Source: Balanoglossus misakiensis (Eukaryota > Animalia > Hemichordata). From it: a DNA stretch of 64,000 bases. Positions 10,701 to 63,836 of this stretch are shown here, in pieces. The number at the start of each line of letters is the position of its first letter. Position 1 is the stretch's first letter. The notes under the pieces are model-generated. The model saw only the letters and a list, made by a program, of their open reading frames with translations. It did no database searches and was not told the DNA's origin. Location: assembly GCA_040954595.2 (NCBI GenBank), contig CM082579.2, positions 9,599,625-9,663,624 of the forward strand. Direction: 5' to 3'. The translations under genes and the position numbers were made by a program.

Positions 10701-13700
10701 AATCATCATTTTTTTATTTCTGCCAGTCATGCCAAAATTGCCCTGTTTATAGGAATAACATATCTATCCTAGTATAAAGTTGGTGCATTGAAGTAAAGGG
10801 TGAGAAAACACATTTTGCAAAAGACTATTTTCACCATGAAGCACAGATTTCGATTCTATGGTGAAATTGTCCAGCATGCAAATTAGCCCCGACTCTATGA
10901 TTTTTTCCTGGGGAGAACCCTGTACTTGTAAGAAAACACTACAGGAAAAAGAGAAAACTTGGAACTCAATTTGACTTTATAAAAACAATCAAAAGAAACA
11001 CAAGCCAAGTCCCAGAGTGTTACAAACCTGTACTTCCAGATTTCTGAGTCTTTGTGACAGAGATGTGTTTGTCTTCTTTTCTTCTTGAAGTCGTAGATTA
11101 ACTTCTCTGACTTCCTGTCTGTAGGAAGCGTCTTTCTCCTTCAATGAAACGCGCTGTTTTGAAACAATAAATTTAAAACGGCTCAGTATTGCACTACAGT
11201 ATGTCATCGGTGACCACATTTTACTGGAAATGCAATCAGACTTGCTCTAGTATACCAGAAAAAATGTAGTCATAGTGGGACTGTTAGCAGAATCGTTACG
11301 GAGGTTCCAAATTCCTTTACAGCCCTTTATAGTTACATACACCTATCAATCATCCTCCTATACTCTAACAAACCACCCAAAGGAAGGATAAACAGTCGCA
11401 ATTATCTAGTCTACCACTACCTGTGATACCTGCGCCATATTAATAAATTAACCACCCATAGCCTTACCTCAGTTTGTAGAGCCTGAACTTCACCTTGCAG
11501 CCGACTGTTTTCTGACGACAGCTTCTTACACTTCTCAATTTCTGTAGACAGCTTCTCGTTGCTTTTTTCGGAGACCGACTTCACCACGTGCAGCTCCCGC
11601 ACCACTTTCTGCAGCCTGGCCTTGTACTGGTCGCCCCTGGCCTCGCTCTCCTTCATCTTCCTCTCCATCTCCCGGTTGATGGTGTTGTAGTTCTTGCGCT
11701 GGTTGGTGATCTTCAGCAGCTCGGCCTCCAGGTCCCGCCTCAGGCTCTGCGTCCGGTTCGCTTCCGTGACCGACCTCTCGTCCGCGGCTCGCATCTTCGC
11801 CTCGAGCGCCTTTTCCATTTCTTGGATCCTCCGGGTGGCCTCGTCTTCCGTCTCGGCGTTCTCCTGCGTCTTCCGGACGACTTCCGCTCGCTGCTTCTCG
11901 GTCTCCGCCCGGGCGGCGTCGCGTTCCTTCCGCAGCTCGTCCAGTTTGCACCCGAGTTCTGCCTTCGTCCGTTCCAGCTCGGCTTTGCAGGAGTCCCTCT
12001 CCTTCCTGGCATCTTCCAGGCCCTCCACCTCCTTCTCGTACTGCTCCTTCTCGGCCTGGCGCCGACTCTCGCCGGACTTGAGCCTCTCCCGCAGCTCGGC
12101 CACCACGGACGACCGCTCGTCCAGGGCCCGCTGGCACTCCTCGCTGATGTTCCTGTTCATGTCTTCGTATGCCTTGGCGTCGGACGCCATCTTGGCTTTC
12201 AGTTTCTCGCTGTACTTCTGCGCCGCCGCGACCTCCTCCGCCAGGGCCTTCGTCTTCTCCGCCTCCGCCCACCTCTGGTTCTCCCAGGCCGTCTGCTGCT
12301 GCTGCTGGCAGCGCTTGAGACCCAGCACCTCCTCCTGCAGCTGGAACTCCCGGTCCCGCGACTGGCTCTTCAGAGTCTGCGTCTCCTCGTTCAGTTTCTC
12401 GATCATGCCCTTGAAGAACGCCTGCTGGTCACGCAGCTGTCTCTCCAGGGCGTCGGCCTTCCTTCCCTCGTCCTCGACCCCGTGCCTCTGTCTCTCCGCG
12501 GCCGTCCTGTACTGCTCGCACTCGTTCTCCACGGTGGACATCTTCTGCTTCACGGCCGCGCATTCAAGTTCCAGCCGGTTGCGCTCCGCTGCGATCGCCT
12601 CCTTCGCCTTTTCTGCCGACGCTAGACTGTCTTTCAGTTTCTCCACCTCGCCGGTCAAACCTGCCCTGTGCGTTTCCCCAGCCTCTTTCACCGCCTGCAG
12701 GGACGAACTCAAGCGCTCTACCTCGGCTCTGTTCGTCTCCGCTTCCTTCTCCGCCTCCCCGGCTACGTTTCGCAGTCTCAGAACCTCCCGCTGTAACGAT
12801 GAGCTTTCCTCAGCCAGCCTCCCCTTTTCTAAATCTGCCTGCTTCAGTTGGGTGTTCAAGCTTTCCAATTCAGAGTTCTGTGATCCCACAATCCTTTCCA
12901 TTTCGCACTTGGCGTCTTGCATGGATGCCGCCAACCGACCATTTTCTGTTTCCTTGGTAGCCACATCCTCCATTAGCCTCTGCACTTCACTCTGAAGTGC
13001 CATCGCTTGCGTGTTTACTTGTCGGTAACTTTCCTGAAATTGTTCAAGGTTTAAAATGAGCGATGACCCACAAGTTTGGAATATTGTATGTAAGACTGTA
13101 AAACACCCCGTTTGTAGGATATGACAGTAAAATAAAAATCTCGCCCCAAATGAATAAACGGTAGAGACGGATTATTCATTTTGGCGAGATTATCACTCCT
13201 GTGTGTACAAGTGGGATGGAGGTTGTGTGTGATCAAACGTTGATTCACTTTAATATATCCACATGTAGAATAAGAATAACATAAATAGTGTCTTGTATCA
13301 AACATAACTAATGGAAAAGGAGCAGCGAGAGAAAAGAGAGACTTTGTCCCTTTAATGAAAAAAAAATGTAGATGTCACAAGCAAAGATGTGTATTTCCGT
13401 TGCATCTTACCGAGATCTGTTCCTTGGCAGTGTGCAGTGACAACATTTCCTTTTTCAGTTGATGAAGTTGCTCCGCAGGTACATAGGTAGCTTTCAAATT
13501 TGCGTTCTCTTTTTCCAGATCCATTATCCTTTGTTCCAGAATCAGTCCCATGGATTCCCCGCTCGGTTCCTCATTGGCTGAAAAAAAGGTTGACAAACAG
13601 ACAATAAGTGTCACTTTGAGATCTCCCATTCAGGTCGGTGCATTTTTATTTGCATATGGCTACTAAAGGAAGCCAAACTTCTGGCCATTATTACTGAAGA

Positions 13701-19673: not shown

Positions 19674-20817
19674 GCTTGGTGTATCTGCATACACATTCAT
19701 TGAAAACAATAGATAATTAATTGATAATAATTGAATTAATATATCATCTTGTCAAAGTCTTTTACTGTTATTGTTGAAATTTCCCTTGAATTTTTGTTTG
19801 GGGGAAAATGCGCAATACCCGTTATTGTTATGTTAATGGTATATATTGTTTTCCCAAAATCAAAGGATAGGGGCCACTACTCTATAAGGGCTCTGGGGAG
19901 AACACTGCAGGGATGTTGTGTATTTCCATAGAGGTTAAAATCATCTTGGATATTCCTTCCTCTCTGGTGCTTGCCCCAAGGATAGACAGTACCGTCCGTA
20001 ATTATTATCCATGCTAGCTGCGTTTCCACAGCTAGCTGAGTAACTCCATGCATATGGACCACCAATCATCACTTCCCAAGATTTCATGTTTACTAATAAT
20101 CACCCTTTGTTTATCAGATTTGCACACAAAAGTCATTCACCTTTTGTTGACCAGTTTTGTCCAGGTTTCACACCATTATCACTTTTTTGTCATTTCTCCC
20201 ATGGATGCTGAGGGTCTTGCTCTGACATCTTTGTAAATGTTATTGTAAGCAATTTCCCTTGAATTTTAACTCCAAACCTTTCAGGGTCTTTTGAATTGAA
20301 CTGCCCCCTTGGACTCTAGCCTTAGGCTTAGAGTTAGGCATGACTGTATTTAAAATGACTAAAGTGATTACCCTAAAGTACAACGCCACTAGAGAATTGA
20401 AGACTCCAAGGTGGTAGGGCAACCTAGCAGCACATCCGCTAAAAATTCAATCATTGCAGCTAAGAAAAATTGTTTTACCTGCTACCTAGCTGCAGTTCAG
20501 TAGCTCGATTTTGCCTCAGCCTGGTTTGCACAGCCCAGGAAGAATCGAGCTACTGAACTGTTAGGTACGTAGACAGTCTGACTGAGATTATTATTCGCGA
20601 CCGTGTGGTCATGAATCAATGTGAAAACTAGTGAAATCACTAGTAAGACTTGATTCAAGCCCGACTTCAGGCTTGGGAAGTTTGTACATGTACACACTGT
20701 CTGTACTGTCTGGCCATAGCGGTCCCCAGCGCCCTTCCTGAGAATGCCAGGATCGTGCATGTTTCATATCACAGTCTTGTGCTCAAATCATCTTGGTATC
20801 ATAAACGTAAGACTTAC

Positions 20818-29682: not shown

Positions 29683-32464
29683 TTATGGGATTCCAAATTG
29701 TACAACTAGATCTTCTTTGTGGTCGACTTTGACTTCGGATAGCGCCCCCGCTGCTGTGGCTGCAGCATTGTTTATCTGTGAAGCAAAGAAACAAGAGAAT
29801 AAACATGTGGTAATGTGCATGGTTCTAGGCAATCCTAATCAATAGGATTGTCTAGGGTCCGACCCCAACAAGAATGTGTCCCTGTCAAAAATAAGGAGTC
29901 TGTGAAGTGAAATAAGGGATTAACACGACCCCTGGATGTCAATCTGGCAAAGTGTTCAACTCAGATGAAATTGAATTCTCAGGTGGCACAATCCCTCCTA
30001 TAACAAACCAAATAATGATAAACCTAAATTTGATGGCTAAAGGGGGAAATAGCACTGATACACTTTTTTTTCTGTGATAAATAAAAAGGATCATAGTTAC
30101 TCACCAATTGAATATCTGCTATTGAGACGGGTTCACTTGCTAAGACTGCCTGCGGAACCGATGTACCGGCTGGGAGAGGGCGCTTTCTTGTTTTGCTGGA
30201 GTTGCCACTAACTATAGCTATCCTGGTACTGAAAGGTTTACAATTACAAACAGAGAAAGGGAGGAATTAACTTCATCAGCTGGAGCATGTGATGGATTAA
30301 CACAGCAGATTATATTTTGATCATGATTACAGTTACACATTACAACACACAGCAATGATCTTAGATGCAATCATCACCACTAAACTACAGTTAGGCAGAT
30401 ACCATAGTGACAAACATAATTTTTAAAAGAAATTTCTCTGAGTCAGCCCTATATCTTTACGTGTAGTGTGGATAATTTTGAGTCACCGGTGAGTTTGTTG
30501 AGTCAGTGGCGCAACATACGGGCTTAGAGGGCACACTGGTGACAAGATTCTGAATGAAACCGTTCTAAAGCTGTTTTTTTTTTTCTCTGAGAATCAGCTG
30601 CTTTGTCAGACTTACCTATACTGCCTGGCTCTATCCATGTACTCATGTTGTTCCATTGTATGCGAGTCTAACGCCGACACATCAATGACGTTATTCGCCG
30701 TCTGATGTAAAATCCTATTCAGTGCCGACTGTTCATCGCCTTTCTTCATGTTTGGCGGGGACTGACTACTGAAGTCATCGCTGTAAGAATGAAGAATATT
30801 TTAGCCTGAGGTTTCTTCAATCTCAAGAGTTTTTGGTCACTCCTCTTTGAAGGTACAGTCACCTATGCAAATTTAACCACTGTTACCATGGCAACTTGAA
30901 GTATAGCCAATCACAGATTTTCAGTGGGTGGCACATGTGGAAAAAAGTCACATGGTGGATGATGGTCATTCGAAGACTTAGACATACCCTTCTGACATCA
31001 GCATTTACCCTACAACAATGATGCAAGTTTCAAATTTTTAATAGTTATATATGCAATCTTTTACCTCCGTTTTTCGAAATACCTAACCAACCACAAACGG
31101 CAAACAAAGAACTTAATTATTATAATTAAAATAAATGTGTCCAATATGAACTTACCTTGTAACTGGTCTGTTACTTGCATTAGCAACACTGTTTCCTAGC
31201 AAGTTTGTTCTTTCATTTGGTTCTTGTTCCTGAAACAGATGACAGAAAGTTAGTGCAATTATTAAAGGTGCAACTCAGGACTGAAAGTGAAAATGAAACG
31301 TGTTACAGGGCCTGAAAATCACCATCACAGTTGCATTGATTAGGAAGAGAGACACAATTAATAATTGTTACTATTTAATGTTTCCAAATGTGTCTCAACT
31401 GTCACCCCTATAATTTAAAGTTAACTTTATTACTGTTCACAACAATCATGGCAGGCCACTGTGAGCAGACGGTTTCACTTGGATGTGAAGAATCATGTGT
31501 TACGTACTATCACCAATGTATCCTGTTTTATGTTGTTATCAGTTTTATTTGTGACACACGTTTCAAGCTGCTGCTTTAGTATTAAAAATGTTTCCAGCAA
31601 TTCATTAGTGTTTGACCATAAAGTATTTGAAATCAGTTAATCAAATTAAATTTGAGAGTATTAGTAATTAATTAATATAAATACATAGCTGTAACTCGTC
31701 ATTGTTTTTCACCACCATTCAACCCAAAACAAGCTGACTCATTCGTCTTGTGATCATTCAAAACAAGCAGGGTGGAATGAGTAATAACCAAGTTTTGGTT
31801 TCTAATTGGTATTTTGTTTTCTTCTTTGCTATTATGTAGCTATATATATGGTTAATGATATGCTGAAGAGGATCACACTACTGCTCCCAAGTTGTTCATC
31901 AAAAGCTTGTGTTTATTACATACAACATTTCTTCAGACAAGAAATCATCAAACTTGATATTAGTAGGTCTTCCCATGGAAATAGAAATACACACATGTAT
32001 AACAGTGCTCAATGTTTCAGTTACTAATATTTGGAACATGCAGTTAAACCAGGATTTCTGTCTCACTGTAACTTTATGGCCGTCTAGACAAAGAATGCGT
32101 ATTGTTTATTGACCTTGGCTGACTCTAATATATACGATTAAAATCACGAGATCAACGACCTTCACACGAAAAATAAAATAAAGTTTATACCTGAGAAGTT
32201 GTGGGCATACCGATCCCTGACATATCAGGATTTGGGGACATTTTACGTTGATTGCTTTACGCTACTTCCATACAGTTTCCAACATGTTTTCCAGCACGCC
32301 CCCCCCCCCCCTTCCACTCTTGTTCAGCTGACAGTCACATGTCAACTAGACTGACTGACTCACTCTCGCCCTTGTTGATCGAGGCCCGTCGCACAAATTT
32401 CTAGAGATATTCGGCAACTTACCCCAGCATTGCTGTCGTCGTCTTTACAAAAGCAACACCCCAT
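29683..32464 (-). CDS. LAMTOR1: Ragulator complex protein LAMTOR1 (p18), 5 exons, 165 aa
   Basis: Exons 32464-32423 ([10 protein letters not shown], myristoylation/palmitoylation motif), 31229-31156 (ERTNLL dileucine), 30780-30616 ([35 protein letters not shown]), 30228-30105, 29775-29683 ([11 protein letters not shown]). Confidence 0.95.
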
Positions 32465-32950: not shown

Positions 32951-41977
<9,027 letters not shown>

Positions 41978-42781
41978 TAGTGCATTGTGTTAATTCTTTA
42001 CCGTGAATCAGTAGCAGCAAGCGATGTTTTCTGCCACCCAGGTCTGCAACAGTATAATGTGTGTGGCATTCCTGCCGTAATTTTTTTCTGAAGACATTTC
42101 AGAAGGATGCGATTCTCTGCACTGTCAGCAGAAATGTCACACAATTTGGAAAGTCCCAAATCCAACGTGACCACCCGTTACAAGTGATTGCCACCAGGAA
42201 CTAACTAGCGCTGTATCATTGTATGCAACCACAGGACCATCTTTTGACTTTTCTCAAACAACCTGGGGTCAGTGTCTTTTCAGGACACCTGTGTGTGCTT
42301 CCCCTGGACAAGTAATGGCGGACTGCATGTTTTATAGACTGCCGTGATGATGATTACATAACTACCCATATGTGTCTAGAAAAAGTTGTCGCTGAAGGAC
42401 TTTATTTTAAGGGGAAATAGCAGCAACGTTTTGGAATAAGAGTGATACTTGCAGTGTTGGGTGCACACACATTCAGTCAGCCATTTTCTGATCTTATCCT
42501 CGAATTTTGAATTGGTTATTTTTGAGTAAAGGACAAACATGGAGACAGTGGTACCTACGATCATAGGTCCCCACACTTTGGTTTGATCTGTGTGGTGTGT
42601 GAAAATTCAAGGTAATCGGCAAGATTCATACACCTATGGAAAGTCCTGGGAAAGGTAAATTGTACTTTTAACCCGTAACACTCCTATGAATGAATTACTA
42701 TAAAACTTGTGATTACATATAAATTGACGTAACTGATTATGATCATCCTTGCAAGTGTTTCAATTATCAAAGTGTGAAACA

Positions 42782-42869
42782 TTAACCATCCCCAGTTCCC
42801 TCTTAAGAGGTCCAACCTTACCACTGAAAACATTGGGTTTGGACTGAGCCTTGGTGGTGAAAAGGTTAA
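42782..42869 (+). mobile_element. piggyBac-like mini element, copy 3 (probable NAA15 3' UTR)
   Basis: TTAA-bounded, same core; lies upstream of an AATAAA at ~43045. Confidence 0.7.
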
Positions 42870-44411
42870 AACACGATGCAAAATCAATCATGAAAATTGA
42901 CATTTTTAACCCGAAGTACTTCTCGAGAACTGTTGAACCTCGCCCCCACCTCCAAAAGAAAATTGAGGAATTTGGAATTCCTTGGCGTGTATGGATCCTG
43001 CAAAATCTTGTCTTTACCGTAATATCACCAGAAACATCCAATTAAATAAACACATTTAGAATTAGTTTGCCATTTTCCTGCTTTTGTATCTTTCCAGGGA
43101 TGACACTTAGATTTTACCTGTCTGTACTAGTCCTAATGGGCAGACAGCACTTTGGTGTATATATCAGGACCAGGTGAACTTTATTACACCAGCTGAATTT
43201 TTCAGGCTGTTTAGATGATTACATGTATCCCACCACCCCTATATTTCCTGTGGAATAGACCCACAGATATATCTGCCACAGGCAGGAGGGGGATAAGAAA
43301 CACAGACAAAGGGGAGTCAAATGTAAATGTGGCAGGGGAAGCAATTGGGTGGGTACTAGGATCACCTGAAGGGAAATCTGCCTTTTTTCTCTAGAGAAGA
43401 CCCTCCAGGTGACCCAAATAAGAAGGGTGGGTTGGGTATTAATGAAGGTCGGTCTGTCACTGTAAAAAATTATAAATTGTAAAGTGTAGTCGCAGACAAA
43501 TTTAAGACATCTCTTTTCTTTCCTTTTTTATTTGATCAGTTTGTTTGTTTTTTGCTACCAGAACAAAAACTCGCAGAGCGTGTAAAGAGTGGAAATGAAA
43601 CTTACATAGCACCAAAATCACCCAAGTCATAACTGGGAAATATAGTACTGTAGTTTGCAAGATAAAAACGCACTTCGAAGTTTTGCATTCCTGGACAATT
43701 TTGAGGATCCATGACTCCACTTTGTATACATTTTTGGGGGAAGAGCATCTGATGCTGTCATTGCAGATTTAAAAGCCTTGAGGGCACCTTCTGACGCAGG
43801 AAAAAAATTGTGTCCTGTATAAATCGGGTCATATTTCTTGTGCACCCTTGAAATTGTATATTCATCGGGCTTTCATCCCTTGTGAGGATTGCTCAATACA
43901 GCGCCCTCTGGAGACATGGGTACTACTATTATTTCTGCTCCAGATAGTCGATGGAGGAACAAATTAGCCTTTGTAGAATTCAGGTCTTTTTTATGACTAC
44001 TTTTACTCGGTCTGTGTCATGAACAGACTGTAAAATACTGCATTTCAGTGTAAGCTAAGAAAAAGAATAAAATCAGCATTCTTTTTTTTTTTGTACAGGT
44101 AATCTGCTTGTTTCTGTTTTATAATTGCACAATCTCCACATGGCTTAAAATTTAGGATGGATTTTCTACTATAAAAGTGTCTTCCAGACTAAAGTGTTTA
44201 TCCACTGAAATTAATACAGTTTCTAATTGTACACTGCACTCATTCGACATTACATGTATTTCAAAGACTCCTCCCCCCCCCCCTAGTGAAATTTCTCTTG
44301 TCTTCAGATATAAAATTATTTACACATACTGATGGTTTCTCCGACACATTTCGTGGCTTCGCCCTTTTATAATAGCACTTGGGCGTGATAAATTTTCCTT
44401 CAATCACAAAA

Positions 44412-47400
44412 TCACCGCATTCCCTTCAGGAAAGAATGTTCCAAATTCAGATACGTGGTGATGAATTCCGGGAAGTCTCGTTTGGTGACGATCTCCAGGA
44501 AGATCTGCGAGGCGGTGTTCAGCAGTTGTCTGTCCGCCAGCGTGGCATAGTCGGCGGTCTGCATCTGTTGAGTGAGAAAGTCTCGTATCAGCACGACCAC
44601 CAGGTGACGCGTTATCGTCGTCCCATCATCCTCCAGGCGAGCCTGCTGACGGATCCACTGCCAAACCTGATGAGAAAACAAATCCATCTTTTAGCGAGGG
44701 CACAGCTTCAACTTTTGCTCCAGGGCAATTCTAAAATCACAGGACAATATCACGGATCACTTTAAATATTTTTATAAGAGAACTATAAATAAGTATTCAG
44801 TGCTGTTTTCAGTTCTTGGAGATTGCTTAACATACAGTTCAGTATGTGAGGCACAGAAATCACTATTACCGTAATTCAAGTTTTTCAAAGCCAAAAAATA
44901 CCATTTGTTGCTAATAAAATCCACATTTTAGTTGATATATATGTAACTATAAGTGTACCCTCAAGTTGAAGGTAACAGACTACAGTACCTGTGATCTTGA
45001 AATCTCGGCTGTGGCGGAATCTTCAACAGCACCTTTGTAGAAAAAGTGACCTTTACCTGAGTGAGAGAGACAGAGATGAGGTGTTTTACGATTATAATAC
45101 AGCGATAACAAACAATACTTTTACCGGTAGCCCTTAAATGATGGCAACACAACACACTATTACTTAGGCAAAGAAAAACCGAAATACTAGTTGAAATTTT
45201 AATTACATGTACTCGCATGTTTATATCAAACGAAGTGAAAATACATGCCATTTTCCTCATATACTTTTGCTGTGCAATTTGGCAGAGTTAGAAGAATGTG
45301 TGTACATCTTGAGGAACCTTTGGTGCATAAAGCTGGCAGATGAGGGTTTGGCATTTCTGGGCTTAATAGGTTTGTTAGGGAACATGGTTTGATGTTACCT
45401 CCTTCTTGCATTGCAGTTGGACAAACTGAAAATCACTTGACCAAAATACTATGGCCGAGGCACCTGTGAAATTTGGTGGAATGATTATCAATAAATGAAA
45501 AGAAACTATACAAAACAGGAAACCTCACCATGAAACCATGAATCGATGAAGAGAATTCCAACAGCTATGTTGTGCTGGAGACCAGCCAACATGACTCCAC
45601 CCTGCAGGAAAGCCATCGTAGTCACAGGGTCATTCAATGTGTCAATTCTATGGTTCATCAAACCATTAATGTCATCGTCAATTTCACATTACAACTTGAC
45701 AAACATGGCCAGATGGTACACTCTTACACTAGTATATCAGTGAAGCAATCTTGTGAGAACCAGCTTCTTTTGTAACAAGCAACCACCTGTTCTACACTGT
45801 GTTTTTGTAAAATAAATAAAGTTAAATTTATGGAATTGAAATACCACTGACATTAAGTACTGCTCTGTGTTCAGTAATACATGGAACATTTTGTGTATGC
45901 TACCAGCAACCAAAACACAGGTTGAGGTCATGATCATTCCAAATATTACGACCGTTACTGAGTCTATACCACCATTCAACATTGACAAGCCAATGAGTGT
46001 CCACCAGACTTACCTTGGGCACTACAAGTAAGTCTGTAGCTGTTACGTTCACATCGGCTCTTCCGACCGAATACTGGTTGTCAGAGGGGGCATACCGCCT
46101 GAATAGCTAGGGTGAGCAGAAATTAAAATGTCAAACAGTAACTGATTTTTGGGCATTTACATTTGCGTCATCAACACCAGTGTTTTATCCATGGTCACCT
46201 CTAATTAACATATGCCTATTATATGGCCAAAAGGACATGTTTAAATGTTCGAATGACTATGTGGTGATGCATTGGGTTTTGAGTGTGCCACCCACTGAAA
46301 ATCTGTGATTGGTTATATTTGAATTTTCCATGGTTATACCATGGTAAATTTGCACAGATAACTGTGTACCTTTCATCAGCAGAGCTCAACTTGTTTGCTC
46401 AGTGCAACCAAATTACAGTTACTTCAAGAAGAAGTCACATGCTGATTTGAGATCTATTTACCCTATAACTGACCTGTTGCATTGGCTCAATGAGTTTATC
46501 ATCATAAACCAAGAATCCATCCACACCTGCCTGGATTTCTGTCAACTTGGCACTGCAACAAAATAACAGTAAATTACGGAGAACGTTTATTTAACCATCA
46601 ATCTCTCAAGATTGTAAATTCTCAAAGCTGAATTTCCATATCTAAAAGCTATGATAATAATACTTTATAAAAACGTTCTTTTGATGCCAGACATTAATCA
46701 TATTAACGTTAACTGATATTGGCCAATAAACATAAGACTACTGTACGTACGGACAAGAGTGACAAGATTGCAACTATGGAAATCACCTTGTAGTTTTCTT
46801 GATAATTTCTTGGTATTCAGGCGAGTTTTTCTCGGGGACAAGAAGGGCTGACATCCCTCCTGTTGCATGGCAACTGCGCCGGTGACAGGTCTGAATCACC
46901 AAGTCCATGTAGCTCTTCAAGAAATGTTTCTCCATGTTGACATACTTGTTCCTGTCCGGCAACAGAAAATCCGCCCGGTGCCCTGGAATTCAAACAAGTC
47001 ATAGAGAAGCACTATGAATTGCTTGTGCTGTTTCACCATTTCACCACCGTGGTTTAGTCCAAACCCATTGTTTTCTGTGGTAAGGTTGAACCTCTAAAGA
47101 GGGAACTGGGGGTGAAAGGGTTAAACACCCTTTCTCTGTCTCTCTCACTCAGGTAAAGGTAACTTTTTCTACAAAGGTGCTGTTGAAGATTTTGCCACAG
47201 TCAGGGTGAGCAATATTACTTGAGGAAATTAAAAAAACAAACATGTGGGGTGGTTCATTTTCTGTAACCTAAGCCATGTAGTTCTCAAGATTTCATAATG
47301 ATTCTCACTTTTCTTTTACCCTTCTTTTGATCAACTGTCACAGAATACACAACAGTCTTACATGTAAATGATGAAAATATGTAGCAAAATACACTTCAGA

Positions 47401-50400
47401 CAGGAATGAGCAATATGTATTGTGTATGAGGTGCAGTTTCAAATCCCACTATTTTCACCCCTAAATTCCCTGTACATGGTTTCACCCCAGCAGTGAAAAC
47501 AATGGAGTAACCCAAACTGCAGTGTTAAGAGGGTATAAAAGCTGTCTTGGTTCTCACCGAATTTGTTGATGAAGGACGCGGAGTAGTCCCATATGCCACA
47601 GTTGAGTCCTGCAGAGTGGTCGCGCAATTCATACAGGATTTCATGCATCTCAAACGAGGACAGCAGATTCTCAATCAGAACACAGGCTTTGATACAACCA
47701 TGGGGCAACCTCAACTGTAAAATTATCAAAAAAAATATTAGGCCACATTAGCTGAGTTTGAATCAAACAGTAGATTACTGAAATAAATCCATTTAAAAAG
47801 TGAAAAAAAACAATATGTACAAATGTAGGTTTTTGACGAAAACAAGGTGAATGCTAGAATGACAGACCTATGTTAGAATAACTGTTAGACATTGAGTATT
47901 TTGGGCTTTGTGAAGGAGTATTTACTCATATGTTTACTGCAACTGAGTTTTGTCAAAATTTGAAATTAATTTGGATAAATGACCAGATAAAGATGTTCAC
48001 CTTTTGTTCTGCCCACATAAATATCTCGTTCCATAACCTGGCTTCTTTATGACCTTCCAACTGGAAAACAAAAACACTTCATTAAAAAAGTATCTTTTCC
48101 AAAGTACATCGTTCAGATTATGCAATCATCAGACTGATACTGTGATATTGAAATATCTGAAATTCTTACTTTTTACTTCTCCAACAAAAAGTTCAGTCTT
48201 TTACCAGACAAAGAATTTATCTGACTATTTAACAGTTGCCACACATTTTCTTTTGCTAAAAATTGTATTTTAAGTAAAAATTAATATTGATCAGCATAAA
48301 CTTGAAGTACAAAATAATCAACGGTTTGAACTTGTGAGTGAAAATGCACCTGGCAGATTACTTACTTTGGAGAGATAGAAGAAAGGTCCACTCTCTTGAT
48401 CCAATAAAATCTTCCCAAAATGATATATCATTAATCCAAAATCCCACAACGGTCCAGGAACTTCTATACCTTTTACCTGTGTATAGTCAATGGCGATTGT
48501 GAATTATGAGCATCAAACTGCAAGTTCAACAAATGAATGTCAACAAACGCCACAAAAAGTTCTACATATTATAAACAAGGCTTAATTCTTTGAAACTCAC
48601 CATCATTGTATGGTCCACCATATTCCAAGCTCTTGGTCTCAGCATCAACACTGGGGCGCGTCGGACAGGCGGCACATCCGTGTATTTGCCATGGATGAAT
48701 TCATAAATGTGGTGCATGCCAGTCAACTGATTTCTCCAGGTTGGACAGTGACCATCATCAAAGTCAACCTACAATAGGTTTCAGTAATGGGTCAAACCCT
48801 CTGTGTGTACACTGGTAGCATTCATTCATTCATTCATTCATTCATTCGTTCGTTCGTTCGTTCGTTCGTTCGTTCGTTCGTTCGTTCATTCATTCACTCA
48901 CTCACTCACTCATTCATTCATTCTTTCACTCACTCATTCATTCATTCATTCATTCATTCATTCATTCATTCATGTGAAACCAGAAATCCCTTTTTTTCTT
49001 TCATTTTTATCAGATGAAGATATACAATCACCTACGGAAATAACAGTTACAGCTACCAATTGAAAATTTAAATGCGCAAGAAAAAAACTGCGCCATTATT
49101 CAAAGACTTCTAGACAAGCCTTTTTGACCGTAAACAGGCATATGTAAAATTAGAGATGATCGTATACTTTTAAACAACCTTTATTAGTACTGCCTTCACA
49201 AGTAATGAAACTAATACACTACCAGTGAGTGTTAACTGTTTTAATTGTCTTTAGATGAACTGTAAATTCTTCCCACTTACCTGGACACACTGTGCCTGGG
49301 ACTTCAGCGCCCTCAAGAAATGTTCAAGATTGCTTGGTGACACATCCCCGAGATCAATATGTCTGTTCTGCAGCCGGGCAGGGACCGGCTTCACTGTCCA
49401 CGAACTTTCCCGGATGTGCTTGGTGTCCGCGGGAAAGTCTGGTAGGCTGCCGTGGGCATCGAGTTCAGCTTGGCGAACTGTTCTTGCTCGTAGCATCTGA
49501 TCATTACAGGGAAGAGAAGTCAATTATGAACAATTTTTTTAATGAATAAGACAAACTCGCCATACCGAGCATAAATAGTGTCAAGGACACTGTGCTCCCA
49601 TCTGATCAGAACTGCTACATACATGTGTCAAACCAAATGTCAACAAAATCCAACAAACTGTTTTTAAAAAATAGATATTTTTAAAACACATTTGACATCA
49701 TTGTGAAAACGAATTCCCTAAAACCTTGCAAACCAAATTTTAAAGTGATCAGGCAGGCAGCTTTCAGAGAAAATTACCTTTTACCCCATCAAATATGATT
49801 TGGGGGGGGGGGGGGGGACATTACATTTATACCTTTTGGACATCTGAGTTAAAATGCCTAATGAGGTCAGCAACAAAACACACTGCATCTGCACTTAAAA
49901 GGGTCTTGTATTCATTCTCCAGACCTGGTGGGGGTTCTACCACTTCTACATCGGTGATACCAAGCTGTTTACAAAAATAAAGAATTAATTAATTAATTAA
50001 TTAATATTATTTTTCATTGGCAGGATAAAAAAATGCTTATTATCGATATCATTTACTCAGGAAATAAAAGTACATCACCACAATTTAAAGTGGTCCCATT
50101 TACTTAGTTTTAAAAATGTTGGATAGTTTACATTAAGTATGTTCTATTATTTTTTTTCATTGCAGCTCTATTAATTGTGACATGGAATAAATTTTATTAA
50201 GGTGGTATGTGTCTCGGAGACAGATTCCAATTCTTTGCAATATGTTTAAGTGTGTGAGGAGTCTTTCTTGACAAAAATAAACATTCTGTAGGGACAGTGG
50301 TTATAAAATCCAGTGCAGTAAATGATAATTATCAAAAAGTCCAGCCCTCATTTGACATGCAGGAAGTCCCTATGATCCCTTGTCCCATTTCTAGCGCACA

Positions 50401-50673
50401 CACACACCTTGGAATCGTACATGTACATGTACCCATCTGAAAGTAATGTACATTTAAACTGCAAAATTGTTCAGAGACACCACTAAGAAGTGTAAAATAA
50501 TTAGATTTTACCTTTCCAAGATCGGTTCGCAGTTTGCTTGCAGCGTTTCCATCGTCAGTGGCGCCGCTCACCTGAATTGGTGTGAGTGAAGAAGAGGAGC
50601 AATCTTGCGGGAAGTTTGCATGGGATAGGTGACATTTCAGGCGAAGCAGACGATGCGTTGTTTTCGTGGACAT
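44412..50673 (-). CDS. Malate synthase (MSA-type, metazoan), 13 exons, 569 aa
   Basis: Exons 50673-50572, 49964-49833, 49496-49281, 48768-48601 ([19 protein letters not shown]), 48476-48366 ([12 protein letters not shown]), 48060-48001 ([14 protein letters not shown]), 47714-47558 ([33 protein letters not shown]), 46982-46787 ([13 protein letters not shown]), 46552-46474, 46106-46014, 45601-45529, 45056-44989 ([13 protein letters not shown]) and 44666-44412 ([15 protein letters not shown]) all splice in phase (1710 nt). Catalytic Arg/Glu/Asp motifs are intact. Confidence 0.93.
47031..47124 (-). mobile_element. piggyBac-like mini element, copy 4, in malate synthase intron 7
   Basis: Reverse complement of the 17027/42782 element; ends aagggttaa at 47124. 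Confidence 0.75.
47123..47200 (+). repeat. Inverted duplicate of malate synthase intron 11 acceptor plus most of exon 12 (source 45009-45086)
   Basis: aaacaccctttctctgtctctctcactcaggtaaaggtaactttttctacaaaggtgctgttgaagattttgccacag matches the reverse complement of 45009-45086 at ~72/78 positions by manual alignment. Confidence 0.9.
48820..48972. repeat. Compound tetranucleotide microsatellite (ATTC)n/(GTTC)n/(ACTC)n
   Basis: Directly visible in malate synthase intron 3, ~50 bp from the exon 4 acceptor. Confidence 0.95.
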
Positions 50674-50724
50674 GCCTCTGTTTTGGACGCAGTGTTTAAA
50701 TCAGTGTGCACAAGTTTAATATTT

Positions 50725-51397
50725 AGGGGTTATTACACGGATTTTGGTCGATAACGCGTCGTATTCGAGTGTGTCAGTATTTTGACGAGTTGCGCTTCGC
50801 AACGAGTCGAAATACGGACATCACGAGAATGCGTCGCGTTATCGACCAAAATCCGTGTAATAACCCCTTTATCATACATGCCTACCTATAAAACAGTACG
50901 ATTTGCGAAAATGCGCCGAGAAAAACAATTTCAAATTTGAACTAGGCGCTGGGATCACGGCAGTAGCCATGTTGTGACGTATGACGTGTGGGCCGTAGTA
51001 TCATTTTAAGGGGGTTGGCAGCTTTCATTACGATGGGCACATCCGCATTCTAAATAAACTTGTCTACGTTCTCTTTCAAAATATCATGTTAACAATTATT
51101 TCGCATTGAGAATTTCGAAGAAGTAAAAATGAAACATTCAACATGGCAAAACCGCGTGCTTTGAAAACGTTATTTCAGCTTCTAATAACCGAATTTTACA
51201 ACACCCCTCTCCACTAGCGTCCTATGCCCCGTACGTCGCTCGCACGCGCAGCGAACTGTCGTGCCGCGCGTTCTCAAAAATTGTTCGAGACGCGGAGTGT
51301 AATACCGTAAAATATCGCGCTCAGTGTAATACCGTAAAATATCTTCGGGGCGAGAACAATAGAAAGTGTTAAATACAGGCGTTGCATGTATGATAAA
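50725..51397. mobile_element. Non-autonomous element with a 144-bp terminal palindrome and 14-bp internal inverted repeats (Crypton- or Helentron/HINE-like; family unresolved)
   Basis: Fold-back 50725-50868 with a perfect 34-bp outer stem; tttatcatacatgc (50868-50881) pairs with gcatgtatgataaa (51384-51397); internal direct repeat agtgtaataccgtaaaatatc x2 (~51296-51343); CpG-rich. Confidence 0.7.
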
Positions 51398-52195: not shown

Positions 52196-55100
52196 ATGGA
52201 CGATATTGAAGCCAGCTCGAAAACTGACGACGATAGTGGTCTGGAATCATCCACAAAACAAACCAGGATTTTCAAGATAATCGTCATTGGGGACTCTAAC
52301 GTTGGCAAAACATGCCTGACATTCAGGTTCTGCGGAGGAAAGTTTCCTGGGAAGACCGAAGCGACAATTGGCGTAGATTTTAGAGAGAAATCTGTCGACG
52401 TCAATGGGGAGATGATCAAGGTTAGCATTCACATCTCAAATGTGTTTACAAAATAACAACAGGTTTGGTTTAGTGAAAGTAGGGCACTGGGCACACTTAT
52501 ATATTTCCCTTCAGTGGTATACACCCACATTTGCCTTTCCCCTGAAAACAATGGCATTTGTGTGAATATTAAAAAGATTTCAAGGCTCAAGCTGAGTATT
52601 TGATCATTTTGCTTCTTTTAAAAAATAAATACTAAAGACTATAAAGTGCTAATATGACATGTCATCATCAAATTTGCCTTCTTAATCCATGGAGTGTGCA
52701 TGTCTTAGTTATGAAATGACATTTTTCAGTTTGATAATTAACAAGTTGTCATTTGTGTAAATTAAATTCTTTGTTGCAATGTTTGTTTATAGAGACCAAT
52801 TTATCGAAAGTTTGATTTGTCACAACCAGGAATGTCACTAAATACTGGTACCTTGCAGGGTCTACATTTGTGGGAGGGACATAACACCCTGAGGCTAAGA
52901 AAAAGATGTGATGCTGGTACCTATTAATATTATTATGTCCACTTACTGATGTCCAGATAAAAAGTTCTGATTGCCAAACGTTGTATTTTCCATGGGTGAT
53001 ATCCTCATCAATTTAGTATACAAAATTAAATCCTGACCTTTCTGCCATAGTTCCTGACTTCCAGATGCCATTAGAAAACTTTTTTTTTTTTTTTTAGGGG
53101 GGGGGGGGTTGTATTTTGGCATAAAGGGGCACTGGATGACCACGTGACATTATTCAGAATTTAGTTGTCTGTATGTGTATCAACATAGTCGTACGCACTT
53201 TATAGCTTGTTCGAAGTAGTTTGAATGCAATCATGTTACTATTGTGGACTAGAATTTAAATATTTAAATAAAGGGACGTGGCACAGGCTTTGTTGACTAT
53301 CTGAATAATAATAATGTCTGATTTAACTCGCTAAATATAAATGAAGAAGAACAACAGAGACTTTGAATAAATTCGGGAGAATACCAAGTTTAAGAGAAAA
53401 ATAATACCATAGATTAGTATTGAAATGTCAATGGGGGGATGTGATTGTTTCTGTCCAAGAAAACCTGTGAATTATAATATGATGTACATGGTGTATTCGG
53501 TTGATCATTGAGATGCACCCAGATTTTCAGTGGGCAACAATGGCTGCCTATTTTTCAAAAGAAAGTAGCAAGCGTAATGGTAATTGCACATTGATTTACT
53601 GAAAATTAAGTTTGCCCGGGGTGGTGCTTGAAATGCAGGAACTTTGTGCCAATTTTCTAAATGAAATTTTTGTGCAGCGCTTTCAGGAATCTAATATTAT
53701 ATCAAGTTGCTTAGGCAAAATTTTAGGTCTACATTCCAGTAGCACATAATACACTTTTATTTGTGGAAACCCATATTGGGAAAGGCATGTGCCTGATGGC
53801 AGATGGTACAATATACTGTGTCATTTCTCAAGGTCGCATTATACTGCTGCATCAAGTTCAGGTGGGCTAAACCAAGTTGTTGAGATCCAAATATTGATGG
53901 ACAAGCATATAACACAATATGGAAGATGACAGATGGATTGGTAGTGTCACTTGATTCATCTGTTACACTCTACGACTTTTTAACAGAAAAAACATGAGGG
54001 AATTAGATTTGTTTCGGATGAAGTTGCTCGACAGATCTTTGCCATGCAATTGATTCATGTGAACTGACCTGTCATTCAACTTTTGTCCCAATGTTGTAGC
54101 ATTATCTCACTACCAGTTTCAGTGGTCAACAATCTTGTATTCAATCTGCGATCAACATACGTACATGTAGACTGCGAGCGAAACATGATCATTGCTATCG
54201 GTAGTAGTCTTGTGGTTTAATAAGTTTTGAATTCCTGAAATGTGTCAGTGTACTGAACTACAAAAGATATTCATCAATATTACATGTATAGTAGTAATGC
54301 GATACACTAGTAAAAACATTCATACATGTAGCAGCCAGTGAAGGGATTTTCCTAAAATGGCCTTTATACTTTAGACAGGTTAATAACATGTATTGCACAG
54401 GGACTGAAACAAAGACTGGTTCCTCTATACAGAGGTGGCCACTGACGCAGGTTTGTACTTGTCCAACAAATTTGGTTTAAATTAAATCGAATCATATATT
54501 AATGGTTTTAGAGAATGATATTACTGTTTCTCATATGAAATACTAAATAATCCAATTTCATGGATGATTTAAACCTGAATCCATAACTGAGTCAGACCAA
54601 TGAGGGATGCTATATTCCTTGACTGCATATTCTGGCTTTCAAACACGATAAAACTGATATTTTTTTTTTTATCACAAAACCATAAAACCAATATGGTGGG
54701 TTGCCCAACATATTGCCACAGTCTGCTACATGTACTGAATAGTTAATGCATTTTATATTCCTTTATGACCAAATACCATTTTTAAAACCTCGTAACAAAT
54801 GCCACATGGTCACAACTTGCTAGTCTATTGCATTTCCTATATAATCAAGATTCACTGGCAGAGTACTTTGTACAGCTGTTAACTGTAATACCACTGGGTA
54901 TCATCATAATTTTCATTGACATCAGTTAAAGGGTGCCCCAGTCAATCATCGAAATTATAGTGAATGACAAGAAATTGAGAAAGCACTAGAATGTGCCAAT
55001 AACACCCCCACTGTGCAAGTAAATAAGGGTTTGATGTCTAGTTTTAAAATGATATTGTTAAACATTTGATGTATTTATGTCAGTAAAGTAATATTACCGG

Positions 55101-56018
55101 TATTTGTTGGATGAAATAAGCATGTGTAGTGCAGGTAGGTTTGATAGTGTTACATGTCATTTTCCCAAAATTGGCTTTAATGTCTTTCTTTGCACAAACA
55201 CAGCACATACATTTTTTTACAGATTATATAGTTACCAATTATTTATTATTTTTAATGTTCAAACAAGGTATTGGAGGTTGTACCAATATTTATTTTAGTG
55301 TGTGTGTGTGTGTTATTATCATGTCATACAATGTAGGATTAGCTTGTGCAAGACTGATTGGTGTAGGACTGACCAGTGTTGAAATTTGGTCAGTGTGTCC
55401 TAAATGTGTCTTTGAAGCACACCATTTTCCTTGAGCTGTTTCCATAAATTTTGTGTATGATCATCATGCATTAAATTTCACTTTGTTAATTAATACCCCT
55501 TTCCCTTTCTGTTCCCCGTTCAACACCAGCTACAACTGTGGGACACGGCCGGGCAGGAGAGATTCCGCAAGAGCATGGTGCAGCACTACTACCGAAACGT
55601 GCACGCGGTGGTCTTTGTGTACGACATGACCAAAACGAGTACATTCTCCAACATGCCCGTGTGGATCGAGGAGTGCGAGCGCCACGCCCTCTCGGCCGAC
55701 ATCCCCCGCATCCTGGTGGGCAACAAGTGCGACATCCGCCACAAGGTGGCCGTGCCCACCAGCACGGCGCAGAAGTTCGCCGACGCCAACAGCATGCCGC
55801 TGTTCGAGACGTCGGCCAAGGACGACGCCGAGACGGAGCACGTCAACGCCATCTTCATGACGCTGGCGCACAAACTGAAGAATCACCGGCCGATGATGTC
55901 GCCGTACACCGCGGGACTGCACAAGTACGGGTCGCAGGACATGAGACGGGCGAAGGTGGCCGGGGTGTGGCGAGAGCCGGCCAGACCAGAATCGAAGGAC
56001 AACGTTTGCAGTTGTTAA
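52196..56018 (+). CDS. RAB33B: Ras-related protein Rab-33, 2 exons, 237 aa
   Basis: Exons 52196-52420 ([35 protein letters not shown]) and 55530-56018 ([46 protein letters not shown]). Rab33-diagnostic motifs and a CXC prenylation site; probably co-orthologous to RAB33A and RAB33B. Confidence 0.93.
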
Positions 56019-56247: not shown

Positions 56248-56463
56248 CCGTTTAGGATATGAGAGTAAAAACTCGCCCACAATGAATATACGGTAAAGAC
56301 CGATTATTCATTTTGGGGAGTTTTTCACTCTCGTCTCTACAAGTGGGATGGAAGTTGTGTGTGGTCGAATATTGATTCACTGTATCCACAATGTAGAATA
56401 ACATAAACAGTGTCTTGTATCAAACATAATTAATGGATAAAGGGTAGCGAGAGAGTCCCTTAA
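56248..56463 (+). repeat. Interspersed repeat, copy 2 (probable RAB33 3' UTR)
   Basis: Homologous to 13108-13355. Confidence 0.85.
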
Positions 56464-62805: not shown

Positions 62806-63836
62806 TCACATCTCCTCAGTTTTTATACTTTCAGTTTTGACGTCGTCTTCTTTTGCTGGTTCCGGTTCTTTCTCTGCAGTCGTCTCTGCACTTTCTTGCT
62901 GGCGCGGATCTGCAGCTTTGTCAGCCTCCGAAGTTTCTGAAGTTTTACTTTCTGTTGTACCCTCTGCAGTTTCTGTCGTTGTAGCCTCTGCGGTTTCTGT
63001 CGTTGTGACCACTGCCGTTTCTGTCGTTGTGACCACTGCCGTTTCTGTCGTTGTGACCACTGCCGTTTCTGTCGTTGTAGCCTCTGCCGTTTCTGTCGTA
63101 GTCTCTGCCGTTTCTGTGACCACTGCTGTTTCTATGACCACTGGAAACTGTGGTTTCGCTGGTTCCTCAACTGGAGTTGGCGTCTCTGGCACAACAGTAA
63201 CCTAGGTGGCAATAACAAACTATTAGAACATGATTTTTATGTCTTGAAACAACAGAGTTTACTTCCACTTTACAACATCTCTACATCTTGAACTAGATCA
63301 ATTTTCTACAGCCGGTGACTGTAGGCAATGGATCTAGTTCCATCTTCAAACAGGCACCCACAGATACCATTACATGCTACCCCAGGTAATTCAGTTTCAC
63401 ATACTAGTATATTGACAAATTTAAATTTAATACTCACATCTTTGGTGTCTTCATAACACAACGGATGATATGTCTGCAAAAAAAGTCCCAGAGAAGGTAA
63501 ATTAGCTTTCATCACATTTAACTTAATCTGCTGGGATAGAGAGTGTGAAAAGTACAGAAGAAACAGTATCCTCTTCCCGTAGAAACCAGTCATGCATTTT
63601 TTGTTTGCATTTAAATCAACAATGCAGAAATACCCAGAACACTCTAGGCCATAGCATGTATCACCCGCTATAGAGAGTGATCAAGAAATGAACACATTGG
63701 TTCTAAGCAGCTCAACCATCTAATTGTGACAGTCGGTGCCTACCTTGCCATCCACCCTGATTGCATCTTTCAGCTGCCACTGTTCCTCTTCCTCGTCCCA
63801 GAACTGTTCAAACGATTCCTGGCAGATATCACACAC
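62806..63836 (-). CDS. PCF11: Pre-mRNA cleavage complex II protein PCF11, last three coding exons (gene continues off the right edge)
   Basis: Exons 63836-63744 (VCDICQESFEQFWDEEEEQWQLKDAIRVDGK) and 63473-63438 (TYHPLCYEDTKD) form the C-terminal C2HC zinc-binding motif of PCF11; 63201-62806 encodes an acidic tail ending VKTESIKTEEM*. Confidence 0.88.
62950..63133 (-). repeat. Coding 24-bp minisatellite (TETAVVTT/TETAEATT) in the PCF11 last exon
   Basis: gtttctgtcgttgtgaccactgcc x3 flanked by variant units. Confidence 0.9.

What the first reader, a model, noticed from the sequence alone, without database searches (positions are those of the whole stretch)
45009..47200. Antisense copy of the malate synthase catalytic exon and its splice acceptor inside an upstream intron of the same gene
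Seen: 47123-47200 (intron 7) is a ~92% identical inverted copy of 45009-45086. The source covers the intron 11 polypyrimidine tract, the AG and 48 nt of exon 12 ([16 protein letters not shown]). Known: the ED.ATAEISR motif carries the catalytic base Asp of malate synthase, and long-range intramolecular RNA duplexes can mask splice sites, attract ADAR and promote back-splicing. Inference: the pre-mRNA can form a ~78-bp duplex that hides the exon 12 acceptor, and skipping that 68-nt exon would remove the catalytic residue and shift the frame. The duplex would also bracket exons 8-11 (196+79+93+73 = 441 nt, phase 1 at both ends), which could be skipped in frame or circularised into a stop-free circRNA. 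This may be a built-in cis-antisense splicing switch, or a recent neutral duplication.
Basis: partly seen in the sequence, partly recalled or inferred. Interest (0 to 1): 0.8.

Follow-up and report, generated by a model that had tools for sequence, protein, structure and literature searches.

The report
Backwards exon copy beside a transposon
A 78-base backwards copy of one exon and its splice signal sits against the end of a small repeated element (likely a transposon) in an intron of the same acorn-worm-like gene; it is likely a recent DNA-repair accident on one of two gene versions rather than an evolved splicing switch, though it is predicted to pair with the exon and could disturb its splicing.

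Summary
The inverted copy is real: 47123-47200 matches 45009-45086 at 72 of 78 bases, and a read contig joins it to intron 7. The exon arithmetic holds. (1) The copy starts at the TTAA end of a 93-bp, very high-copy piggyBac-like MITE, with 2 bases of microhomology, as expected for a templated repair patch. (2) Contigs show two versions of the locus. The copy is on the 42x version; the 25x version shares no contig with it and probably lacks it (inferred; contigs can be filtered out). (3) The gene is probably ureidoglycolate lyase, not malate synthase (Arg276Ile, Trp365 lost), so the Asp's catalytic role is untested. Five of six differences break pairing; none compensates. The predicted duplex is strong (-129 kcal/mol) and hides the acceptor, and TBXT shows such pairs can cause skipping, so an accidental effect remains possible (about 0.2). 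No RNA run was listed, so splicing, editing and circRNA are untested. The scan has noted similar intronic inverted exon copies on other DNA (GSK3B exon 8b). Verdict: ordinary origin, unproven effect, low interest.

The parts
47123..47200 (+). Inverted copy of the intron 11 3' end (30 nt) plus 48 nt of exon 12; antisense in the minus-strand pre-mRNA, inside intron 7
   Evidence: contig X1 47101-47396 with 0 differences at depth 42
45009..45086 (-). Source arm: pyrimidine tract, acceptor AG (45058-45057) and first 48 nt of exon 12
47032..47124 (.). 93-bp piggyBac-like MITE (TTAA-bounded, short terminal inverted repeats) whose right TTAA (47121-47124) overlaps the start of the copy by 2 nt
   Evidence: 4 copies in the window; summed contig depth 274,504 against about 45 beside it in X1; hundreds of contigs leave the sequence at 47123-47125 and 47035-47039
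44989..45056 (-). Exon 12 (68 nt), encoding the Asp (residue 495) equivalent to E. coli malate synthase A Asp447
   Evidence: PMC3112382 passages
44412..50673 (-). Host gene, 13 exons, 589 aa, malate-synthase-like family, probably ureidoglycolate lyase (UGL group)
   Evidence: 79% identical to the Ptychodera flava protein P0001; PMC10120013 sections 10-11
45529..46982 (-). Exons 8-11 (441 nt, same phase at both ends) bracketed by the two arms
47203..47234 (+). Possible second templated patch: two exact 10-mers separated by 12 nt that match 46109-46128 (3' end of intron 9) in direct orientation, starting where the inverted copy ends
   Evidence: suggestive only, test designed after seeing the match
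42787..42870 (.). Another copy of the same MITE, inverted relative to the intron 7 copy, downstream of the stop codon

Best explanation
The 78-base inverted copy of exon 12 and its acceptor lies directly against the TTAA end of a high-copy 93-base element, and is likely a templated repair patch, made when a break at or beside that likely transposon end was filled by copying the gene 2 kb away in reverse. SHOWN: the copy, its junction with the element, 2 nt of exact microhomology (4 of 5 allowing one mismatch), and 6 differences of which 5 break pairing. INFERRED: the break-and-template-switch origin; that the copy is young and sits on one of two versions of the locus; that it has decayed neutrally since. 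PREDICTED, untested: the pre-mRNA can form an 81-bp duplex, but only while intron 7 is still unspliced when exon 12 is made 2 kb later. Any skipping, editing or circular RNA would most likely be a minor by-product and not a regulated switch.
For: The junction sits exactly at the MITE end, which is defined by 4 window copies and by contig loose ends at 47123-47125. In 281 single-copy Pack-TIR duplications in animals, 56.9% lie within 15 kb of the source, mostly under 5 kb, and microhomology has a median of 2 bp (PMC8277862 passages; 281 is back-calculated from 160 = 56.9%). Two locus versions: depths 42 and 25.3 sum to the 67.3 of the shared contig at 47367-47411. The copy lies on an unbroken 42x contig. 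The 25.3x contig lies on 47297-47396 and runs on 140 letters to the left with no piece or joint on the copy. In X2 a variant contig stops matching at 47030, the MITE's left edge, with 14 letters left over. The two versions differ at 12 of 100 intron positions there, more than copy and source do (6 of 78), which fits an origin after they split. The exon part of the source encodes the same residues as P. flava, so the three exonic differences arose in the copy, and all three break a pair. The frame on the copy-bearing version is intact, with departures at conserved columns (11 of 202) similar to P. flava (9 of 205) and Glandiceps (12 of 205). In human Alu pairs, editing falls exponentially with a scale of about 800 bp and is weaker across different introns or exons (PMC4066801 passages); by that curve 2030 nt gives about 8% of the close-pair level.
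Against: The predicted duplex is very stable (-129 kcal/mol; perfect copy -158) and dominates the equilibrium fold. An inverted pair 1,448 bp apart, and engineered 220-297 bp reverse complements, cause exon skipping in TBXT (PMC10901737 passages). Absence from the second version is not shown: only 30 of its 140 loose letters were printed, records are dropped by a filter, and X2 shows neither version across 47180-47323. The 42:25 depth ratio is not 1:1, so the second version could be a paralogue or come from a polyploid or pooled sample. Of 5 amino-acid differences listed between the versions, 3 are derived on the copy-bearing one at well-conserved sites and 1 on the other. That is a non-significant hint that this version is less constrained, and the table was cut (43 rows not shown). 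The copy is outside the MITE's inverted repeats, so the Pack-TIR statistics apply only by analogy.
Confidence: 0.65

Rival explanations
1. Same accidental origin, but with a real cis effect: the copy pairs with the exon 12 acceptor often enough to lower correct splicing from this version (exon 12 skipping or intron 11 retention, some exon 8-11 circle and A-to-I editing), making a weak allele of the gene.
For: Duplex of -129 kcal/mol covering the pyrimidine tract and AG. Arms flank exons 8-11 at 137 and 439 nt. TBXT precedent. Active splice sites are depleted in conserved paired regions and looped-out exons are included less (PMC8052449 passages). Three derived substitutions at conserved sites on this version against one on the other.
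Against: Arms are 2030 nt and four introns apart, and the copy sits in a 575-nt intron that can be removed first (intron size; timing is inference). Distance decay in PMC4066801. The frame is intact and overall conservation equals that of relatives. The 3-to-1 split is not significant.
Confidence: 0.2
2. The copy is the remnant of a longer, older inverted duplication, and the MITE inserted later at a TTAA at its edge.
For: The MITE's terminal TTAA aligns with the source at 4 of 5 positions with the preceding G, which could be a target site inside the copy. By eye the flank left of the MITE shares a few short words with the sequence upstream of the source.
Against: The left flank's best local match in 42000-51000 scores 24, below the null median of 27, and is not the source. 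The second version shares that flank up to 47030. Self-BLASTN finds no other inverted gene fragment.
Confidence: 0.08
3. An evolved, selected cis-antisense switch that controls the gene by masking exon 12.
For: The copy covers the acceptor and the codon of an invariant Asp (105 of 106 homologues). Such long-range switches exist (PMC8052449; Dscam1 listing).
Against: No compensatory change: 5 mismatches and 1 G-U among 6 differences. Junction at a MITE end. Probably one version only. Every predicted skipped product is a broken enzyme: skipping exon 12 gives a stop after 13 new codons inside the last exon, and skipping exons 8-11 removes 147 residues. Exons take up much of this compact gene, so a random 78-base patch often includes an exon edge.
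Confidence: 0.04
4. The copy works on the plus strand as a ready-made 53-nt exon (47153-47205) of a read-through or antisense transcript, using the copied acceptor and a donor-like site just after it.
For: The acceptor is intact on the plus strand and is followed by a GT donor-like site at 47206. The NAA15-like gene ends on the plus strand about 5 kb upstream (PF12569).
Against: Several AATAAA signals lie between (43045, 44066, 44913, 45490, 45811, 46725). Donor-like sites are common by chance. No transcript could be examined.
Confidence: 0.02
5. Assembly artefact.
For: The copy touches a very high-copy repeat, and the MITE-side junction has only 24 letters on one side.
Against: An X1 contig carries the copy's own 6 differences and joins it to 196 nt of unique flank; further contigs tile on into exon 7; the source is on separate contigs.
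Confidence: 0.01

Closest known systems
Single-copy Pack-TIRs and gap-filling duplications at DNA transposons in animals (PMC8277862, passages read)
   Same: A short copy of nearby DNA (source under 5 kb away) joined to a terminal-inverted-repeat element with about 2 nt of microhomology; single copy.
   Different: Here the copied DNA lies outside the element's end, not between its inverted repeats, so it could not be moved by the element and is not a Pack-TIR.
Class 2 templated sequence insertion polymorphisms (PMC5110952, part 1 of 4 read)
   Same: A patch of similar size (73-414 bp in the experimental system) with microhomology, interpreted as double-strand-break repair, polymorphic.
   Different: Those come from distant regions; this one comes from 2 kb away in the same gene.
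TBXT AluY-AluSx1 inverted pair and engineered reverse-complement insertions (PMC10901737, passages read)
   Same: A new insertion creates an intragenic inverted pair about 1.5-2 kb apart that brackets exons.
   Different: The TBXT arms are about 300 nt, both intronic, in the introns flanking the skipped exon, fixed in hominoids and shown by deletion to act. Here the arm is 78 nt, covers a splice site and exon, is probably not fixed, and has no shown effect.
Conserved long-range pairings (PCCRs; ATE1, Dscam1) (PMC8052449 passages; PMC12962786 listing and start of abstract)
   Same: Long-range complementarity within 10 kb overlapping a splice site.
   Different: Those are defined by conservation and often compensatory change; neither is seen here.
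Metazoan ureidoglycolate lyase, 'malate synthase-like' (PMC10120013 sections 10-11)
   Same: Host protein has Ile for Arg276, has lost Trp365, and has the 2-residue insertion.
   Different: Leu instead of Met at the Trp365 site; no C-terminal PTS1 but an N-terminal PTS2-like motif; activity untested.

Membership tests
Conserved regulatory long-range RNA structure (PCCR/ATE1 type) | Stable complementarity between the arms | tested here: met
   -129 kcal/mol duplex; 73 of 81 bases paired in the equilibrium fold; prediction only
Conserved regulatory long-range RNA structure (PCCR/ATE1 type) | Compensatory or pair-preserving changes | tested here: not met
   6 differences: 5 mismatches, 1 G-U, 0 compensatory
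Conserved regulatory long-range RNA structure (PCCR/ATE1 type) | Present in all alleles | tested here: inconclusive
   Copy on the 42x contig only; the 25x contig does not match it, but filtered records cannot be excluded
Conserved regulatory long-range RNA structure (PCCR/ATE1 type) | Conserved in related species | not testable with these tools
   No genome held; no relative's intron DNA was reachable
Conserved regulatory long-range RNA structure (PCCR/ATE1 type) | Measured effect on splicing, editing or circle formation | not testable with these tools
   No RNA holder listed
piggyBac-type MITE | TTAA at both ends | tested here: met
   Exact at both ends in 2 of 4 window copies; one mismatch at one end in the other 2, including this one; TTAA rule from PMC5381638 passages
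piggyBac-type MITE | Short terminal inverted repeats starting with C[C/A/T][C/A/T], no coding capacity | tested here: met
   about 93 bp; no Rfam match in 42000-51000
piggyBac-type MITE | High copy number with sharp ends | tested here: met
   5452 contigs laid in X1, nearly all on two repeats; loose ends pile at 47123-47125 and 47035-47039; summed depth is not a copy number
piggyBac-type MITE | Empty site with a single TTAA; partner transposase with the same ends | not tested
   Second-version letters across the site were not printed; no genome to search
Pack-TIR | Captured sequence lies between the two terminal inverted repeats | tested here: not met
   The copy lies outside the right end; no element end follows it
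Pack-TIR | Nearby source and junction microhomology | tested here: met
   2030 nt; 2 nt exact
Malate synthase A (MS group) | Arg276 and Trp365 of the glyoxylate site kept | tested here: not met
   Ile324 and Leu415 in the window protein (positions read from the alignment of P0001 to E. coli 3cuz)
Malate synthase A (MS group) | Catalytic Asp447 kept | tested here: met
   Asp495, in exon 12
Malate synthase A (MS group) | Acetyl-CoA site conserved; malate synthase activity | not tested
   Residue list is in a supplementary figure that was not opened; activity needs a bench assay
Ureidoglycolate lyase (UGL group) | Arg276Ile and 2-residue insertion | tested here: met
   Ile in the window and in 100 of 106 homologues; the only 2-residue gap shared by both bacterial alignments is seen for P0001 and the window has the same segment; equating it with the paper's insertion is my reading
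Ureidoglycolate lyase (UGL group) | Trp365Met | tested here: inconclusive
   Trp is lost but replaced by Leu, as in P. flava; Met in 104 of 106 homologues
Ureidoglycolate lyase (UGL group) | C-terminal PTS1 | tested here: not met
   Absent; a PTS2-like nonapeptide at residue 8 instead (pattern recalled). PTS1-like ends in only 39 of 106 homologues, so this is not a strict feature
Ureidoglycolate lyase (UGL group) | Converts (S)-ureidoglycolate to glyoxylate and urea | not testable with these tools
   Shown for the zebrafish protein in PMC10120013

The most novel reading that the evidence does not exclude
A break at a MITE end was patched with an inverted copy of the gene's own 3' splice site, perhaps with a second patch from another 3' splice site of the same gene. 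This created in one step a natural, heritable cis 'antisense oligonucleotide' that masks exon 12 and knocks down ureidoglycolate lyase from one allele. The copy-free allele in the same animal would be a built-in control for watching a long-range splicing switch being born.
Probability: 0.2. Interest if true: 0.55.

Novelty: new member of a known kind. Interest (0 to 1): 0.22.

Why it matters
If the best reading holds it matters little: templated patches beside transposon ends and chance intragenic inverted repeats are known. If the copy does mask exon 12, it would be a clean natural case of an exon-covering antisense arm arising de novo and still segregating, testable by allele-specific RNA-seq. 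It would show how switches like those of TBXT or ATE1 begin. Four literature searches returned no natural example of an intronic inverted exon-plus-acceptor copy, but they are word searches of an open-access library and do not show absence from print. A practical by-product: the gene should be read as a probable ureidoglycolate lyase.

Tried and rejected
Whole genome: none held, so the MITE family and other MITE-flanking duplications could not be surveyed. Sequencing runs: no RNA holder listed; this is no evidence on expression. X3 held next to none of the words and laid nothing. Places without contig cover (X2 at 47180-47323; the second version's source intron) were not counted as absence. 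Rfam: 0 matches at E up to 0.1 in 42000-51000. Left flank as a continuation of the copy: rejected (score 24, null median 27). Relaxed selection on the host protein: not supported overall (11 of 202 against 9 of 205 and 12 of 205; 106 of 120 homologues of 500-660 aa were used, 14 dropped by length). The stop-free circle as a sign of design: rejected, since it follows from the block being in frame. The second inverted pair (42787-42870 with 47031-47114, -122 kcal/mol) is MITE against MITE; it lies beyond two minus-strand AATAAA signals (43532, 43185) and does not overlap the exon copy's arm. One search used an exon 6 end 3 nt too far; one search corrected it, with no change of frame. Earlier-findings look-ups near the place and by sequence returned nothing.

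Full report
Observation. The repeat is there as described. The repeat finder reports arms 45009-45089 and 47120-47200, 81 nt, 91% complementary, 2030 nt apart. BLASTN of the window against itself gives E = 1e-25, and the alignment scores 127 against a maximum of 33 in 100 shuffles. Over 47123-47200 there are 6 differences in 78 bases. The host gene is on the minus strand: 13 exons from 50673 to 44412, 12 GT-AG introns, 589 codons and no internal stop. The copy is in intron 7 (575 nt). The source is the last 30 nt of intron 11 and the first 48 nt of the 68-nt exon 12. Skipping exon 12 gives a stop after 13 new codons, 38 nt into the last exon. Skipping exons 8-11 (441 nt) keeps the frame, and the circle has one stop-free frame, which is automatic for an in-frame block.

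Organism and gene. The best relative of the last exon is the Ptychodera flava 'malate synthase-like' protein (75% over that exon; 79% over 589 columns), so this is likely an acorn worm. Neighbours are an NAA15-like gene (PF12569) and a Ras-family GTPase. The name malate synthase is probably wrong. PMC10120013 (sections 10 and 11 read) shows that the zebrafish protein of this group is ureidoglycolate lyase, has no malate synthase activity, and is marked by Arg276Ile, Trp365Met and a 2-residue insertion. The window protein has Ile324 and Leu415 at those sites (placed by the alignment of P0001 to E. coli 3cuz). The Asp equal to Asp447, the catalytic base of malate synthase A (PMC3112382 passages), is kept as Asp495 in exon 12 and in 105 of 106 homologues. 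Its role in the lyase is not tested in the sections I read, and the paper's supplementary figure S14, not opened, may bear on it. Losing exon 12 would still remove the C-terminal domain.

Directly left of the copy lies a 93-bp element (47032-47124) with three more copies in the window, near 7741, 17026 and 42787. All four end in TTAA on one side, and two have it exactly on both sides, with short C-starting inverted repeats inside. This is the piggyBac pattern (PMC5381638 passages). In run X1 the summed contig depth over it is 274,504 against about 45 beside it, and hundreds of contigs leave the sequence at 47123-47125, which fixes the right end. The last two letters of that TTAA are also the first two letters of the copy, and 4 of the 5 letters around them match the source. 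A copy that begins exactly at a transposon end, with 2 nt of microhomology and a source 2 kb away, resembles the gap-filling duplications of PMC8277862 (passages). It is not a Pack-TIR, because it lies outside the inverted repeats. The origin by break and template switch is inferred.

Is it in the reads, and on both versions? Three runs were listed, all DNA contigs of one sample, possibly the window's source. An X1 contig covers 47101-47396 with no difference, and others tile on into exon 7, so an assembly error is unlikely. The contigs show two versions of the locus. At 47367-47411 one shared contig has depth 67.3; to its left there are two, at 42 and 25.3. The copy is on the 42x contig, which is unbroken, so the versions share no 31-letter word there. 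The 25.3x contig lies on 47297-47396 with 12 differences and continues 140 letters further left. The 30 letters printed resemble 47264-47293 (24 of 30 by eye), but no piece or joint was placed on the copy at 80% likeness, although a colinear contig would reach about 40 nt into it. In X2, a variant contig matches 46785-47030 with 9 differences and has 14 unmatched letters, which I place at the MITE edge because the X1 contig starts at the same base. Together these suggest that the second version lacks the copy. This is inference: records are filtered, an extra insertion could explain the gap, and the 42:25 ratio leaves open a paralogue, polyploidy or a pooled sample.

Signs of selection on pairing. 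None. Of the 6 differences, 5 make mismatches and 1 a G-U pair. The three exonic ones arose in the copy, since the source encodes the same 23 residues as P. flava. The copy differs from its source less (6 of 78) than the two versions differ from each other nearby (12 of 100), which fits a young insertion. The host protein departs from 11 of 202 strongly conserved columns, against 9 of 205 for P. flava and 12 of 205 for Glandiceps (106 of 120 homologues used). One result leans the other way. Of 13 coding differences listed between the versions (table cut, 43 rows not shown), 8 are silent and 5 change a residue; 3 of these are derived on the copy-bearing version at well-conserved sites and 1 on the other. 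That is too few to count.

Could it still act? The predicted duplex is -129 kcal/mol, and in the equilibrium fold of 44900-47300 it pairs 73 of 81 source bases, including the acceptor AG. Precedent exists. In TBXT an inverted Alu pair 1,448 bp apart, and engineered reverse complements of 220-297 bp, cause exon skipping (PMC10901737 passages). Conserved pairings obstruct splice sites and surround circular RNAs (PMC8052449 passages). Against a large effect: the arm is short, it sits four introns upstream in an intron that can be removed before exon 12 is made (inference), and Alu editing falls with a scale of about 800 bp and is weaker across gene segments (PMC4066801 passages). No RNA holder was listed, so none of this could be measured. 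I put a measurable accidental effect at about 0.2 and an evolved switch at about 0.04.

A possible second patch. Starting at 47203, where the inverted copy ends, two exact 10-mers 12 nt apart match 46109-46128, the 3' end of intron 9, in direct orientation. The local score is 36, against a 99th percentile of 35 and a maximum of 41 in 139 random 66-nt windows (11 of 150 draws dropped for touching known repeats). It is the only such two-block match within 3 kb at positions 3001-61000, the microsatellite at 48750-49000 excluded. The test was shaped after seeing the match, so it is a lead only. If real, the insertion is a two-template patchwork from two 3' splice-site regions.

Comparison and verdict. 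In origin it works like a templated repair insertion beside a DNA transposon (PMC8277862; PMC5110952, part 1 of 4 read). In possible effect it resembles the TBXT inverted pair. It fails the test for a conserved regulatory RNA structure on compensatory change and is inconclusive on allele distribution. Four word searches found no published natural case of an exon-plus-acceptor inverted copy in an intron, which does not prove there is none. The scan's own notes hold similar cases on other DNA, such as GSK3B exon 8b (unchecked). Novelty: new member of a known kind. Interest 0.22; about 0.55 if an allele-specific splicing effect were shown.

Noticed in passing
window 50673-50512 (exon 1, minus strand): The protein lacks a C-terminal PTS1 but has a PTS2-like nonapeptide at residue 8. 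The same pattern is in the P. flava, two amphioxus and one sea-urchin homologues (10 of 106 homologues in all; pattern recalled), suggesting a different peroxisomal import route for this enzyme in invertebrate deuterostomes.
   Followed up: partly
window 44400-48100: Two strongly diverged versions of the locus (9 differences in 246 nt around exon 8; 12 in 100 in intron 7) at depths of about 42 and 25 in X1, closer to 2:1 than 1:1: possible polyploidy, paralogue or pooled sample.
   Followed up: partly
window 47203-47234 and 46109-46128: Possible second templated patch copied from the 3' end of intron 9, adjoining the inverted copy.
   Followed up: partly
window 47153-47205 (+): On the plus strand the copied acceptor is followed by a donor-like GT at 47206, giving a potential 53-nt exon for an antisense or read-through transcript.
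   Followed up: partly
window 46191-46376, 5129-5312, 19466-19574, 30844-30946: A second dispersed high-copy repeat family; one copy is in intron 9 of the same gene (summed contig depth 106,051).
   Followed up: no
window 50725-50868, 2099-2206, 20493-20560, 63290-63340: Self-complementary elements of 50-145 nt; the one at 50725-50868 (47-nt arms, 91%) lies about 50 nt upstream of the host gene's start codon, in the region shared with the divergent GTPase gene.
   Followed up: no
window 38752-41930 (+) and 52196-55980 (+): The host gene sits between an NAA15-like gene and a Rab33-like GTPase (Pfam PF12569 and PF00071; the Rab33 name and the adjacency of NAA15 and RAB33B in vertebrates are recalled).
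   Followed up: partly
window 13108-13332 and 56248-56454: A 226-column, 80% identical direct repeat pair, unexamined.
   Followed up: no
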